Origin: Candidatus Atabeyarchaeum deiterrae | GTDB taxonomy: Archaea > Asgardarchaeota > Atabeyarchaeia > Atabeyarchaeales > Atabeyarchaeaceae | DNA: 64,000 nucleotides | Assembly: GCA_037310415.1 (NCBI GenBank) | Contig: CP147780.1 | Location: 1,760,001-1,824,000 of the forward strand | Reading direction: 5' to 3' | Part shown: positions 41,349-44,624 of the stretch, in pieces | How positions within the stretch are numbered: the stretch's first letter is position 1 | Layout: every line of letters starts with the position of its first letter | Notes under the pieces: model-generated | What the model was told of the DNA's origin: nothing | What the model saw: the letters and a program-made list of their open reading frames with translations, nothing else | Database searches by the model: none | Position numbers and translations under genes: made by a program

Positions 41349-42208
41349 ACAGATCAAGTAGCGCTAATACACCAAACGAGAATCCTTACCTATCTGAGCC
41401 ATGCCGCATACTGCGCAAGATAGACTTGGCTGAGGGCGTCAGACTGTTCCAGATCCGACCAACAAATGAGAGCTCGACGCTTGCAGCGAACTATGCTCCT
41501 GGCCAATTCGTCATGGTCTCAGTTCCTGGAATAGGTGAAGCGCCTTTCTCTATCTCATCTACTCCTACACGTCCTGGTACCATGGAGTTAGGGATCAGAA
41601 AGGTCGGGAGAATAACTGAAGCGATATTCCAGCTGAAAGAAAAGGACATCATGTTTGTTAGAGGACCATACGGGAATAACTTTAACATCTCCGCGATGGA
41701 AGGCAAAGACCTAATTATCGTCGCTGGGGGAATAGGGCTAATCCCTCTGCGCTCGGTGCTACTTTTCGCGCTCGATAATAGGGAGCTCTTCAAACGGATA
41801 ATGTTTCTGTATGGCGCGCGAACGCCAGACGAAAGACTGTACAAGAATGAGTTGACCGAGCTGAAAGAGCGCGGAGATGTGGAGTGCCACTACTCGGTCG
41901 ACCGTGATCCCACAGGGAAATTCCTTGGAAAAGTTGGAGTAGTCACAACACTCTTTGCTGATCTCAAAGACATAGAGCCTGAGAAGACATCCGTCGTAAT
42001 CTGTGGTCCCCCGGTCATGTACACCTATGTGATAAGAGAACTGCTCAAGCTGAAAATACCTAAGAACCAGATCCAAATGACGCTCGAACGCCGAATGAAG
42101 TGCGGAATAGGCAAGTGCGGTCACTGCGCCTTGGACGAACTGTACACGTGCAGAGATGGGCCAGTCTTCACATACTGGGATGTAATCCACTTCAGGGAGT
42201 TGATCTGA
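41345..42208 (+). CDS. hydG: Group 3b hydrogenase gamma subunit (FAD/NAD(P)-binding, 2Fe-2S)
   Basis: PGQF, GEAPFSISS, RGPYG, AGGIG, CGPPVM, MKCGIGKCGHC. Confidence 0.93.
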   Translation: MNRSSSANTPNENPYLSEPCRILRKIDLAEGVRLFQIRPTNESSTLAANYAPGQFVMVSVPGIGEAPFSISSTPTRPGTMELGIRKVGRITEAIFQLKEKDIMFVRGPYGNNFNISAMEGKDLIIVAGGIGLIPLRSVLLFALDNRELFKRIMFLYGARTPDERLYKNELTELKERGDVECHYSVDRDPTGKFLGKVGVVTTLFADLKDIEPEKTSVVICGPPVMYTYVIRELLKLKIPKNQIQMTLERRMKCGIGKCGHCALDELYTCRDGPVFTYWDVIHFRELI

Positions 42209-42236
42209 AGGAGGAGCATTTTGGAGGACTATCATC

Positions 42237-43040
42237 ATGTCAAAGGCAAAAGAAGTAACAAAGCCTAAGCTCGGCATTTACGAATTGACAGGTTGTTCCG
42301 GCGAACAGTTAATTTTCCTCCACAGCGAGGAACTCTTACTCGACCTAGTGAAAGTCTTCGATTTACGGGTCTGGGTCATGGCAACAAGCGGTCCAGAAAT
42401 AGACGACGTAGACGTCGCCTTAATTGAGGGTTCCGTGGGCACAGAGCAGGATGCTGAACGGCTAAAGGAAATCAGAAAACGGGCTAAGACTCTAGTAGCC
42501 ATCGGTGACTGCGCCTGTTACGGATGCATCCAAGCCCAGTCAGCCAACGACGGAAAGTATCAGGAAAGACTGAAACTCGTCTACGGAGACCCCTCAAAGA
42601 TAACCGTTCGCAAACCCATGGAGGCCCAACCAGTCGACGCAATAGTCAAAGTAGACTACTCTCTACCCGGCTGCCCGATAAACGCAAGGCAGACCTTTGC
42701 ACTCGTCACTAGACTTGCAAGAGGGTTCCAACCAGAGTCACCCAAGTTCCCAGTGTGTCTGGAATGCAGAATGAAAGACAATAATTGTCTCCTATACAAC
42801 GGCAAGTTCTGCCTCGGACCAATAACCCTGGCTGGATGTGGCGCTGTCTGCCCGTCCTACAACCTCCCCTGTGTGGGTTGCTTTGGATTGAATGAAGATG
42901 GCAACCTAACCTCTGAAATAAAGAAACTTGAGGAGAACGGATTTAAAAAAGAAGATGTGATTCGACGAATCCGAACCTTTGGAGGAACCAAGGCAGCCAA
43001 AACCATAGAGAAACTACTACAGGAGGGAACACTGAAGTAA
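42237..43040 (+). CDS. hydD: Group 3b hydrogenase small (delta) subunit
   Basis: GCSGE, EGS, GDCA..G, PGCP, VCLEC, CLGP, CP...PC.GC. Confidence 0.92.
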   Translation: MSKAKEVTKPKLGIYELTGCSGEQLIFLHSEELLLDLVKVFDLRVWVMATSGPEIDDVDVALIEGSVGTEQDAERLKEIRKRAKTLVAIGDCACYGCIQAQSANDGKYQERLKLVYGDPSKITVRKPMEAQPVDAIVKVDYSLPGCPINARQTFALVTRLARGFQPESPKFPVCLECRMKDNNCLLYNGKFCLGPITLAGCGAVCPSYNLPCVGCFGLNEDGNLTSEIKKLEENGFKKEDVIRRIRTFGGTKAAKTIEKLLQEGTLK

Positions 43041-43305
43041 ACTACCACCGTCTTAAGACGGTGGCTTTCCGTTTAGGTGATAGATATGTGGCACAGCCAA
43101 ACTCACATCACCTGCATCTGGACGGCCGAGGCGGTTTACGTCGCCTCGCTCGGCGGAAACCTGGGCTCACCCGCTCCGCCGAGTGACTGGCTCTTTGCAT
43201 GGGTTTTACGCCCAGTCAGCAACCCTATACCCAAACTAGTAGCACTATGCGGAGGTTTAAGAACTCAACGCAATTCCTCCACTCTTTGAAAGGGTGGTCT
43301 CTTTG
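43037..43305 (-). mobile_element. Non-autonomous IS200/IS605-type element (MITE/PATE) with structured RNA-like interior
   Basis: Sub-terminal hairpins at both ends: perfect 20-bp palindrome at 43045-43064 in a GAAAGCC...GGTAGTTTAC context (minus strand), and imperfect hairpin at 43279-43297 next to GCAATTCCTCC. No terminal IR or TSD. Excision restores a tight hydD-hydA junction. Confidence 0.7.
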
Positions 43306-43316
43306 TGGTGATTAAT

Positions 43317-44624
43317 ATGAAGCGAGACGAAAAATCAATTGACATCGAATACCTTCCCCGAGTTGAGGGGCATGGAGCTATAACAATAGAGATTACGGAT
43401 AGTGGTAAGGTTGGCGATGTGAAAGTCGACATACCAGAAGCTCCAAGACTCATAGAAGCCTTAGTGGTGGGCAAGACTCCTGAAGAAGACTTGAACATGG
43501 TTCCTAGAGTATGTGGCATATGTTCCTTCAGCCACAAGTATGCAGGCATCCGCGCCTTTGAAAAAGCATTGAATGTGGTTCCCTCTAAGAAAGCAGTCGC
43601 ACTAAGAACCCTCCTACATATTTCCGAAACCCTCCAAAGCGACGTTCTACACGTCTTCTTCCTTTCACTACCTGACCTCCTAGGTTACCCCAACGCCATA
43701 GCCATGGCTAGCGACTACAAAGACGCGGTCTTGAGTGCCATGAAGATGAAAGGGTTCGCCAACAAGATGATGGAAATAGGATCCGGTCGATTCGTACACG
43801 GAGAAAACCCAGTCATAGGAGGCTTCGGGAGATACCCATCTGAAGAAGAGCTAACACCACTCAAAGAACAATCACAAGAACTCATTCCACTAGCTGAAAA
43901 AGCAATGAAGCTGCTCGGAGACATGGAAATCCCAACATTCCCAGAACGAGAAACGATCTTCATGTGCCTCAAACCGCCAACAGGAGAATACGGCTTGGTC
44001 GGAGACACGGTATTCGTCTCGGACGGAAAAGAGACACCAGTAGAGAACTACGAACAACTCACAAACGAGAGAGTAGTCTCCCATTCGTTTGCAAAGCGAT
44101 CAACCTACGGCGGAAAACCCTTCACCGTCGGTGCCCTTGCAAGAATAAGCCTCCTCGGAGACCGCCTCAAAGGAATAGCGAAAAAGTATTACGATCAATA
44201 CTACGGTGAGCAGTGGAAGAAGAACATACTATACAACATCCACGCTCAAGCACTTGAAATCCTCTGGTGCCTGCAGGCAGTATTCCCGGTTGTAGACGAG
44301 ATCGTAGAAGCAGAAACGCCGAACGAAGGGATCGCAAAACGAGGCAGGGCAACAGGCAAGGGAACTGGCGCAGTCGAAGCGCCGAGAGGAATACTGTATC
44401 ACCACTATGAGGTCGAGAACAATCTAATCAAGCGCTCCAACATTATCACACCTACCGCGCAGAACCTTGACGACATCGAGGAGTACCTTAAAGTCGCGGC
44501 GACCAACCTTCTGAAGCAGAATGAAAAAGAGGATCTTCCGGCTAAGTTGGAGATGGTTGCGAGAGCATTCGACCCGTGCATCAGCTGCTCAGTACATGTG
44601 CTGCGACTCAAGTCTGGCCAATAG
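43317..44624 (+). CDS. hydA: Group 3b [NiFe]-hydrogenase large (alpha) subunit
   Basis: RVEGHG, L1 RVCGIC, EAPRG, L2 DPCISCSVH plus a short cleavable tail; ATG 43317 preceded by GGTGA. Confidence 0.95.
   Translation: MKRDEKSIDIEYLPRVEGHGAITIEITDSGKVGDVKVDIPEAPRLIEALVVGKTPEEDLNMVPRVCGICSFSHKYAGIRAFEKALNVVPSKKAVALRTLLHISETLQSDVLHVFFLSLPDLLGYPNAIAMASDYKDAVLSAMKMKGFANKMMEIGSGRFVHGENPVIGGFGRYPSEEELTPLKEQSQELIPLAEKAMKLLGDMEIPTFPERETIFMCLKPPTGEYGLVGDTVFVSDGKETPVENYEQLTNERVVSHSFAKRSTYGGKPFTVGALARISLLGDRLKGIAKKYYDQYYGEQWKKNILYNIHAQALEILWCLQAVFPVVDEIVEAETPNEGIAKRGRATGKGTGAVEAPRGILYHHYEVENNLIKRSNIITPTAQNLDDIEEYLKVAATNLLKQNEKEDLPAKLEMVARAFDPCISCSVHVLRLKSGQ

What the first reader, a model, noticed from the sequence alone, without database searches (positions are those of the whole stretch)
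43037..43305. Protein-less IS200/IS605-like cassette in the hydrogenase operon that folds like a stand-alone guide (omega) RNA
Seen: end hairpins at 43045-43064 (perfect palindrome CCACCGTCTTAAGACGGTGG) and 43279-43297. Three back-to-back internal stems: 43127-33/43142-48, 43149-57/43175-83 and 43184-90/43212-18. A long-range closing helix 43071-83/43225-36 pairs better on the minus strand (G-U rather than A-C). A TATA-like TTCTTAAAC lies about 20-25 nt upstream of that helix on the minus strand. Established: IS200/IS605 ends are sub-terminal hairpins without IR/TSD, and TnpB omega-RNAs are transcribed across the right end with the guide taken from flanking DNA. Inference: a mobile RNA-only unit. 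Its guide would be the flank (TTCAGTGTTCCCTCCTG..., antisense to the hydD 3' end), used in trans by a TnpB/IscB-like protein.
Basis: partly seen in the sequence, partly recalled or inferred. Interest (0 to 1): 0.7.

Follow-up and report, generated by a model that had tools for sequence, protein, structure and literature searches.

The report
Protein-less transposon carrying a guide RNA
A 280-base remnant of a TnpB-type jumping gene sits exactly in the stop/start overlap of two hydrogenase genes of an Asgard archaeon. It has lost its protein gene but keeps its two ends and a complete guide-RNA scaffold; this kind of element is already known from bacteria, so the find is a tidy new example, not a new principle.

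Summary
Window 43037-43316 is a 280-nt non-autonomous IS200/IS605 (IS1341/TnpB-type) element on the minus strand. It is inserted 3' of a TCAT target, which is the ATGA stop/start overlap of hydD/hydA. Two genomes of the same family have the empty site.

Both ends are shared with a TnpB-bearing element in the same genome (G000 408323-409686). A covariance model built only from 11 TnpB-linked 3' ends hits the element on the minus strand at full length, ending exactly at 43037 (80 bits, E about 1e-19).

The scaffold has stems S1, S2 and S3, the right-end hairpin, and a 6-bp pseudoknot joining positions -103..-98 to -6..-1. The pseudoknot covaries in four variants across the family and lies where the ISDra2 omega-RNA pseudoknot lies.

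A sibling element (78-81% identical) lies in a metagenome contig with different flanks, again at an NNA|TGA stop.

Not shown:
- Transcription: no RNA data cover the element.
- Use by a TnpB: the genome's intact TnpBs are only 29-36% identical to the TnpBs that carry this scaffold class.
- Current mobility: the only tnpA looks frameshifted.

Stand-alone omega-RNAs (PATEs) are already described, so this is a new member of a known kind. This scan had also noted the same stretch in earlier readings.

The parts
43037..43316 (-). Whole non-autonomous IS200/IS605 (TnpB-type) element, 280 nt. The boundary has a 1-nt ambiguity.
   Evidence: Empty sites in G001 and G002. Both ends are shared with elements A, B and E of the same genome. 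A sibling element, L137, is 279 nt.
43317..43320 (-). Target / transposon-adjacent motif: TCAT on the minus strand, which is ATGA on the plus strand. It includes the hydA start codon and the former hydD TGA stop.
   Evidence: TCAT abuts the left end in almost every copy examined: own, A, C, D, E, L030, four G002 copies, L094, L137, L169, L154 and L149. B has TCAC.
43267..43316 (-). Left end (LE): the hairpin at 43279-43297 flanked by the conserved AAGAGACC and GGAGGAATTGCG motifs.
   Evidence: Aligns to the LE of the tnpB-bearing elements E, T0, L030 and G002 L078 (90% over 41 nt).
43255..43266 (-). GAGTTCTTAAAC, a conserved TATA-like motif. It is the putative tnpB promoter, here placed about 20-27 nt upstream of the scaffold.
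   Evidence: Conserved as GAGTTCTTAAG in A-E, L030 and the G002 elements, where it lies about 36 nt upstream of the tnpB start. The promoter role is inferred.
43184..43236 (-). 5' part of the scaffold: a remnant of the tnpB codons after RuvC-III (43224-43236) plus the subtype-specific hairpin Ha (43184-90/43212-18).
   Evidence: Ha is unchanged in the sibling L137.
43149..43183 (-). Stem S1 (CTCGGCGGA/TCCGCCGAG) with a shortened loop that keeps the family's GCGG and CCAG.TTT motifs.
   Evidence: Covariation: 7 of 9 pairs change on both sides and 97.6% of cells pair. Model alignment.
43127..43148 (-). Stem S2 (CGAGGCG/CGCCTCG). Its loop ACGTAAAC holds the 5' half of the pseudoknot (rc of 43134-43139).
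   Evidence: 5 of 6 pairs covary. Loop 6-mers are listed.
43075..43113 (-). Stem S3 (AGGTGAT..ATCACCT with an inner GGC/GCC hairpin).
   Evidence: Inverted repeat I13. It forms in the fold. Compensatory changes against L137: AT>GC and GC>CG. Homologous stems occur in A, E and L038.
43045..43064 (-). Right-end (RE) hairpin, a perfect 10-bp palindrome.
   Evidence: Compensatory changes against A/B/E and L137. In tnpB-bearing copies the hairpin encodes the TnpB C-terminus ..KPP...GGS*.
43037..43044 (-). RE terminus TAGTTTAC. Its last 6 nt (GTTTAC) form the 3' half of the pseudoknot. On the plus strand it reads G TAA AC and supplies the present hydD stop codon (43038-43040).
43017..43036 (-). Predicted guide (TTCAGTGTTCCCTCCTGTAG), antisense to the last codons of hydD.
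   Evidence: It lies directly 3' of the scaffold end defined by the model. There is no other TAM-flanked match in the genome. The guide role is inferred.
42237..43040 (+). hydD-like hydrogenase small subunit (Oxidored_q6). Its C-terminus is unchanged by the insertion (AAA TGA became AAG TAA).
43317..44624 (+). hydA-like [NiFe] hydrogenase large subunit. Its start codon is kept and is now preceded by the LE-derived GGTGAT.

Best explanation
[quoted passage not shown] It is an internal-deletion derivative of an IS1341-type (tnpB-only) IS200/IS605 insertion sequence, oriented on the minus strand.

Shown:
- It inserted 3' of a TCAT target, inside the ATGA overlap of the hydD stop and the hydA start.
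- The insertion left both reading frames intact, because the element's last bases (GTAAAC on the plus strand) recreate an in-frame stop.
- It keeps only the left end (hairpin plus a conserved TATA-like motif) and the last roughly 200 nt of the parent, which form a complete TnpB omega-RNA scaffold: S1, S2, S3, the right-end hairpin and a pseudoknot next to the guide.

Inferred mechanism:
- The left-end promoter drives a minus-strand RNA of about 200-220 nt.
- Its 3' 16-20 nt (TTCAGTGTTCCCTCCTG...) come from the flank and act as the guide.
- A TnpB supplied in trans would load this RNA and cut the rejoined TCAT|TTCAGTG... donor site if the element were ever excised.
- Repair from a copy that still carries the element would then restore it (homing, as shown for bacterial TnpB).

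My estimates: about 0.9 that the identity (PATE with an omega-RNA scaffold) is right, and about 0.4 that it is currently expressed and used by a TnpB in this cell.
For: Insertion and ends:
- Empty sites in same-family genomes G001 (AAGAAGTGAAG) and G002 (AAGAAATGAAT) against own CTGAA[280 nt]ATGAAG.
- Both ends are shared with A, B, C and with element E, which holds a 422-427-aa ORF matching PF07282. Its RuvC D/E/D residues and zinc finger are intact when aligned to a solved TnpB.

Scaffold:
- Model R1, built only from 11 TnpB-linked 3' ends, hits 43198-43037 on the minus strand at 80.2 bits, E 1.2e-19, model positions 1-190, ending at the element boundary.
- Covariation over 35 distinct family members: 91.1% of cells pair against 71.2% in shuffles (0 of 500 as high) and 38-49% when the partners are slid.
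- A near-invariant G.U pair (26 of 27) fits only the tnpB-sense strand.
- The pseudoknot was not part of the model. It pairs in 94% of cells and occurs as GTAAAC/GTTTAC, GTCAAC/GTTGAC, GTCAGT/ACTGAC and GTCAGC/GCTGAC.
- In the own element it is a perfect 6 bp at -103..-98 with -6..-1. In ISDra2 it joins -102..-106 to -2..-6 (PMC10097598).

Constraint after loss of the gene:
- Sibling PATE L137 has the same architecture, is 78-81% identical, and has different flanks and a TCAT target.
- Between the two, hairpin Ha and the pseudoknot show 0 changes in 26 positions. Omega-specific paired positions changed at 9 of 84 against 41 of 165 unpaired positions (Fisher p 0.008). Compensatory changes occur in S3 and in the end hairpins.
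- Several other independent minimal 'left end plus scaffold' elements exist: L094, L169/L154, L149 and L123.
Against: - No RNA evidence. The one metatranscriptome contig found covers only 42400-42534.
- No TnpB of the GTTTAC scaffold class is in this genome. T1 and T2 are 29-36% identical to the TnpBs that carry that class, so compatibility in trans is uncertain.
- The only Y1 tnpA appears frameshifted. Excision, which the homing role presupposes, may not occur now.
- This subtype is single-copy in the genome.
- The alignments used for helices S1, S2 and the right-end hairpin were fitted to the model.
- The TATA-like motif is not a proven Asgard promoter.
Confidence: 0.8

Rival explanations
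1. Dead relic. The element is what is left of an old insertion. It is neither transcribed as a guide RNA nor mobile, and its structure is inherited, not maintained.
For: - This subtype is single-copy here.
- The cognate TnpB class is absent.
- The only tnpA is apparently frameshifted.
- The genome holds clearly decayed relatives: C with an internal deletion, D with a left end only, F, and two 5'-truncated solo right ends.
- There is no RNA support.
Against: - Every helix and the 6-bp pseudoknot are intact.
- The S1 loop is trimmed but its conserved motifs are kept.
- The comparison with the sibling PATE L137 shows fewer changes in omega-specific paired positions (p 0.008), none in Ha or the pseudoknot, and compensatory changes that arose after the protein gene was lost.
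Confidence: 0.3
2. Exapted antisense or operon regulator. The left-end promoter drives an RNA antisense to the hydD 3' end, or the structured insert in the sense mRNA uncouples hydD and hydA translation. Either would tune hydrogenase subunit expression independently of any TnpB.
For: - The insertion replaces a translationally coupled ATGA overlap with a 280-nt structured spacer and a new GGTGAT Shine-Dalgarno-like sequence before hydA.
- The plus strand also folds well (z -4.1).
- A near-identical strain in another study's metagenome also carries the left junction (record 6).
Against: - Nothing is specific to hydrogenase. The sibling sits at the stop codon of an unrelated GTPase gene.
- The conserved features are those of the transposon and the omega-RNA.
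- There are no expression data.
Confidence: 0.07
3. A native structured RNA or riboswitch-like leader of hydA on the plus strand, unrelated to mobile DNA.
For: It is intergenic within an operon and has a strong fold.
Against: - It is absent from the same junction in G001 and G002.
- It is homologous end to end to IS elements.
- Rfam finds nothing.
Confidence: 0.02

Closest known systems
Stand-alone omega-RNAs / PATEs of IS200/IS605. Altae-Tran et al. 2021 as summarised in PMC10691335; Meers et al. 2023, PMC10055086; PATE concept from Dyall-Smith et al. 2011 as cited there.
   Same: It is a protein-less element bounded by IS200/IS605 left and right ends. It carries the omega-RNA next to the right end, with the guide taken from the flank, and sits in a genome that also holds TnpB-bearing elements. 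The papers state that such RNAs must be used in trans and, for some, that they do work in trans.
   Different: The host is an Asgard archaeon. This scaffold class has no cognate TnpB in the same genome. The insertion lies precisely in a stop/start overlap, with the element end recreating the stop codon. No expression or activity data exist here.
ISDra2 TnpB omega-RNA (Deinococcus radiodurans; cryo-EM structure, PMC10097598).
   Same: The scaffold overlaps the tnpB 3' end and the right end. It is a multi-stem architecture with a pseudoknot joining the nucleotides just 5' of the guide to a segment about 100 nt upstream (-2..-6 with -102..-106 in ISDra2, against -1..-6 with -98..-103 here).
   Different: There is no detectable sequence similarity. 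The scaffold here is longer (about 160-200 nt against 116 nt). The TAM is TCAT, not TTGAT. The pseudoknot here is inferred from covariation, not from a structure.
Element E of the same genome (G000 408323-409686), an IS1341-type element with intact TnpB 'T1'.
   Same: The left-end motifs, the right-end hairpin and the TCAT target are the same. The S1/S2/S3/pseudoknot layout is the same.
   Different: E encodes the protein. Its pseudoknot variant is GTCAAC/GTTGAC and its stem sequences differ. Its TnpB is only 29-36% identical to the TnpBs linked to GTTTAC-class scaffolds.

Membership tests
IS200/IS605 non-autonomous element (PATE) | Subterminal imperfect hairpins at both ends and no terminal inverted repeats | tested here: met
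   Hairpins at 43045-43064 and 43279-43297. The two ends are not inverted copies of each other.
IS200/IS605 non-autonomous element (PATE) | Insertion 3' of a short conserved target at the left end, without target-site duplication | tested here: met
   The empty sites in G001 and G002 show a clean 280-nt insertion with no duplication. TCAT abuts the left end in almost all copies.
IS200/IS605 non-autonomous element (PATE) | Ends shared with protein-coding IS elements, and no ORF of its own | tested here: met
   The ends match E (TnpB, PF07282) and G002 L078 and others. All three minus-strand frames carry stops. The 70-aa plus-strand ORF has no Pfam hit.
IS200/IS605 non-autonomous element (PATE) | Mobilised by a Y1 (HUH) TnpA transposase | not testable with these tools
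   A sibling copy with other flanks (L137) shows past mobility. The one tnpA in the genome lies in an element whose ends share motifs with this family's ends, but it looks frameshifted.
TnpB omega-RNA | Lies at the right end on the tnpB-sense strand and ends at the transposon boundary, so the guide is flank-derived | tested here: met
   The model built from TnpB-linked 3' ends matches 43198-43037 on the minus strand at full length and ends at 43037.
TnpB omega-RNA | Conserved secondary structure supported by covariation, including a pseudoknot adjacent to the guide | tested here: met
   Four pseudoknot variants covary. Slid and shuffled controls score far lower.
TnpB omega-RNA | Transcribed as a discrete RNA | not testable with these tools
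   The only RNA run that holds part of the stretch covers 42400-42534.
TnpB omega-RNA | A compatible TnpB is present and uses the RNA for TAM-dependent DNA cleavage | tested here: inconclusive
   Intact TnpBs T1 and T2 are present. They are 29-36% identical to the TnpBs that carry the GTTTAC scaffold class, and no member of that class is in the genome.
Curated Rfam RNA families (for example HEARO / IscB omega-RNA) | Match to a curated covariance model | tested here: not met
   No hit at E<=1 in 42000-44500 and none at gathering score in the whole window.

The most novel reading that the evidence does not exclude
Guide-RNA-only transposon remnants may form a self-sustaining lineage in Asgard-related archaea. 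Minimal 'left end + promoter + omega-RNA' units arose several times. They keep their RNA structure under selection after losing tnpB, and they persist in genomes that lack their own class of TnpB. That would mean either that they borrow distantly related TnpBs (about 30% identity) or that they have a TnpB-independent role. In addition, the GTTTAC end of this class lets such elements insert silently into NNA|TGA stop codons, as seen in both copies of this subtype.
Probability: 0.2. Interest if true: 0.6.

Novelty: new member of a known kind. Interest (0 to 1): 0.35.

Why it matters
It documents, with boundaries exact to one base, an omega-RNA-only IS200/IS605 element in an Asgard archaeon. TnpB biology in this group has been little examined, although TnpB is the ancestor of eukaryotic Fanzor and of Cas12.

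The family alignment gives three usable results: a TAM (TCAT), a scaffold model, and a covarying pseudoknot. All three could guide experiments on Asgard TnpBs as compact editors.

The comparison of two protein-less siblings gives some evidence that the RNA structure stays under selection after the nuclease gene is lost.

For annotation, it explains a 280-nt 'gap' inside a hydrogenase operon and shows that both flanking genes are intact.

Tried and rejected
- Rfam scans, permissive and at gathering score, found nothing.
- RNA evidence: one search for runs and one laying of contigs. The metatranscriptome contig does not reach the element. The DNA contigs show no joint across the element and so no empty-site variant. 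Only X7 record 6 bridges the left junction.
- A first metagenome pattern specific to the own S3 region found nothing.
- Folding energy does not distinguish the strands.
- A genome-wide search for other TAM-flanked targets of the predicted guide found only the native flank, which is preceded by GTTTAC.
- A search for a closer parent found no TnpB-linked element with the own-subtype 5' part (hairpin Ha). The best TnpB-linked scaffolds are 74-80% identical over the last 100-130 nt.
- MAFFT misaligned the 5' arm of the own S1. The model was therefore built without the own element and used as an independent test.
- Searches (a mistyped reference; script machine failure) gave nothing.
- The idea that other copies also sit at gene starts was rejected. 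ORFs after the ATGA of A-E are only 8-48 codons long.

Full report
**Setting.** The finding lies between a hydD-like small-subunit gene (42237-43040, Oxidored_q6) and a hydA-like [NiFe] large-subunit gene (ATG 43317, to 44624). Both belong to a four-gene hydBGDA-type operon. The window is G000:C1:1760001-1824000 of a closed 2.76-Mb genome. The nearest named record is a Promethearchaeati (Asgard) MAG, and the DNA is held by wetland and freshwater-sediment metagenomes.

**Observation.** Both strands fold better than shuffles, with z -3.85 for the minus strand and -4.12 for the plus strand, so energy does not choose a strand. The 'closing helix' appears in one minimum-free-energy fold. It competes with a stem that is conserved in relatives, and it disappears when the flank is included.

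**It is an insertion.** In two genomes of the same family but another genus, hydD and hydA overlap: G001 has AAGAAGTGAAG and G002 has AAGAAATGAAT. The window has CTGAA[280 nt]ATGAAG. Removing 43037-43316 gives CTG AAA TGA overlapping ATG AAG, the same arrangement as in G002. With the insert, hydD reads CTG AAG TAA, so the protein is unchanged and the stop comes from the element's end. hydA keeps its ATG. A boundary shifted by one base (43038-43317) fits the G001-like GTGA overlap equally well. I prefer 43037-43316 because TCAT then abuts the left end as in the other copies. A contig from another study's metagenome bridges the left junction (record 6).

**It belongs to an IS200/IS605 family present in the genome.**
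- blastn finds elements sharing both ends: A (311756-312145) and B (2085274-2085668).
- It also finds a decayed copy C, a left-end-only piece D and a right-end-only piece F.
- Element E (408323-409686) contains a 422-427-aa minus-strand ORF matching PF07282.
- Aligned to a solved TnpB, that ORF has the RuvC D, E and D residues and the zinc finger.
- tnpB runs from the window's right side to its left. In IS terms, the left end is therefore at 43316 and the right end at 43037.
- The minus-strand sequence just outside the left end is TCAT in almost every copy in this genome, in G002 and in metagenome contigs.

**The retained interior is an omega-RNA scaffold.**
- I built covariance model R1 from 11 tnpB-linked 3' ends only: E, T2, and G001, G002, G004 and G029 elements. 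The own element and A/B were left out.
- R1 hits the window once, on the minus strand at 43198-43037: 80.2 bits, E 1.2e-19, model positions 1-190, ending on the last base of the element.
- Over 35 distinct family members, 91.1% of pair cells are standard pairs. Shuffles give 71.2% (0 of 500 as high) and slid partners give 38-49%.
- S1 has 7 of 9 pairs changed on both sides, and S2 has 5 of 6.
- One S1 pair is G.U in 26 of 27 sequences, which fits only this strand.

**The pseudoknot.**
- The S2 loop 6-mer is complementary to the last six bases of the right end.
- It occurs in four co-varying versions: GTAAAC/GTTTAC, GTCAAC/GTTGAC, GTCAGT/ACTGAC and GTCAGC/GCTGAC.
- This pseudoknot was not in the model, so it is an independent test.
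- In the own element it is a perfect 6 bp between -103..-98 and -6..-1.
- The ISDra2 TnpB structure has its pseudoknot between -102..-106 and -2..-6 (PMC10097598).

**How the element arose.**
- The last 38 codons of the parent tnpB can still be read (..RPDAGDVSLAVPHIYHLNGKPPS*). Upstream of them the frame is broken.
- A and B keep about 75 N-terminal and 69 C-terminal codons of a G002-type tnpB.
- The own element is therefore left end plus TATA-like motif (GAGTTCTTAAAC, conserved across the family and about 36 nt before the tnpB start in E) joined to the last roughly 195 nt of the parent.

**Evidence for constraint after the gene was lost.**
- A metagenome contig holds a sibling, L137:3503-3781, 279 nt long, with the same architecture including hairpin Ha. 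It is 78-81% identical and has different flanks.
- It is inserted at the stop of a DRG/Obg-type GTPase gene, as TAT CTG TC[G TAA...
- The two share the deletion architecture, so their differences arose in the protein-less state.
- Ha and the pseudoknot have 0 changes in 26 positions.
- Omega-specific paired positions changed at 9 of 84, against 41 of 165 unpaired positions (Fisher p 0.008).
- S3 and both end hairpins show compensatory changes. One S1 pair is broken in L137.
- Other independent minimal 'left end plus scaffold' elements exist: L094, L169/L154 (one element with two different flanks), L149 and L123.

**What is not shown.**
- No RNA data cover the element.
- The genome has intact TnpBs T1 and T2 but none of the GTTTAC scaffold class. 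Such TnpBs occur in G002, G004 and metagenomes, and are 29-36% identical to T1 and T2.
- The one Y1 tnpA seems split by a frameshift.
- The predicted guide has no other TAM-flanked match in the genome. Its only sensible target is the rejoined donor site, as in the homing model of Meers et al. (PMC10055086).

**Comparison with what is known.** Stand-alone omega-RNAs that work in trans, and PATEs that 'often encode omega-RNAs', are already described. This element is a well-resolved archaeal example with a neat silent insertion site, not a new kind of system.

Noticed in passing
L033:1054-1650 (G000:C1:1377054-1377650): The only Y1 tnpA of the genome, next to a tnpB in an IS605-type element whose ends share motifs with this family's ends, appears split by a frameshift. 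The N-terminal part (..IHLMNYHFVRSPRYMRKLL..) is in another frame and ends in a stop just before the HUH-containing frame.
   Followed up: partly
G000:C1:1685759-1685885 (+) and 2631090-2631218 (-): Two T2-type solo right-end relics. They are cut off 5' within the S2 loop and have no left end nearby.
   Followed up: partly
G000:C1 311756, 408323, 1803037, 2005665, 2085274, 2362822, 2365219: All seven copies or fragments of this end family lie in the same orientation along 2 Mb of the chromosome. That is unexpected if orientation followed two replichores from a single origin.
   Followed up: no
L137:3503-3781 and window 43037-43040: Both copies of this subtype sit in an NNA|TGA stop codon of a gene on the opposite strand. 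The element end (G TAA AC) recreates the stop in frame, making the insertions silent. This may be survivorship or a property of the GTTTAC class.
   Followed up: partly
L074, L076, L078, L080, L082 (G002 contigs C151, C220, C178, C128, C127): The sister genus holds five full-length GTTTAC-class elements. Four have 383-453-aa tnpB frames and one is degraded. The window's genome has only deletion derivatives of that class.
   Followed up: partly
L019 (G000:C1:2362822-2365442): A lone right-end fragment (F, 2362822) lies about 2.4 kb upstream of the decayed copy C. This may be a disrupted or composite element.
   Followed up: no
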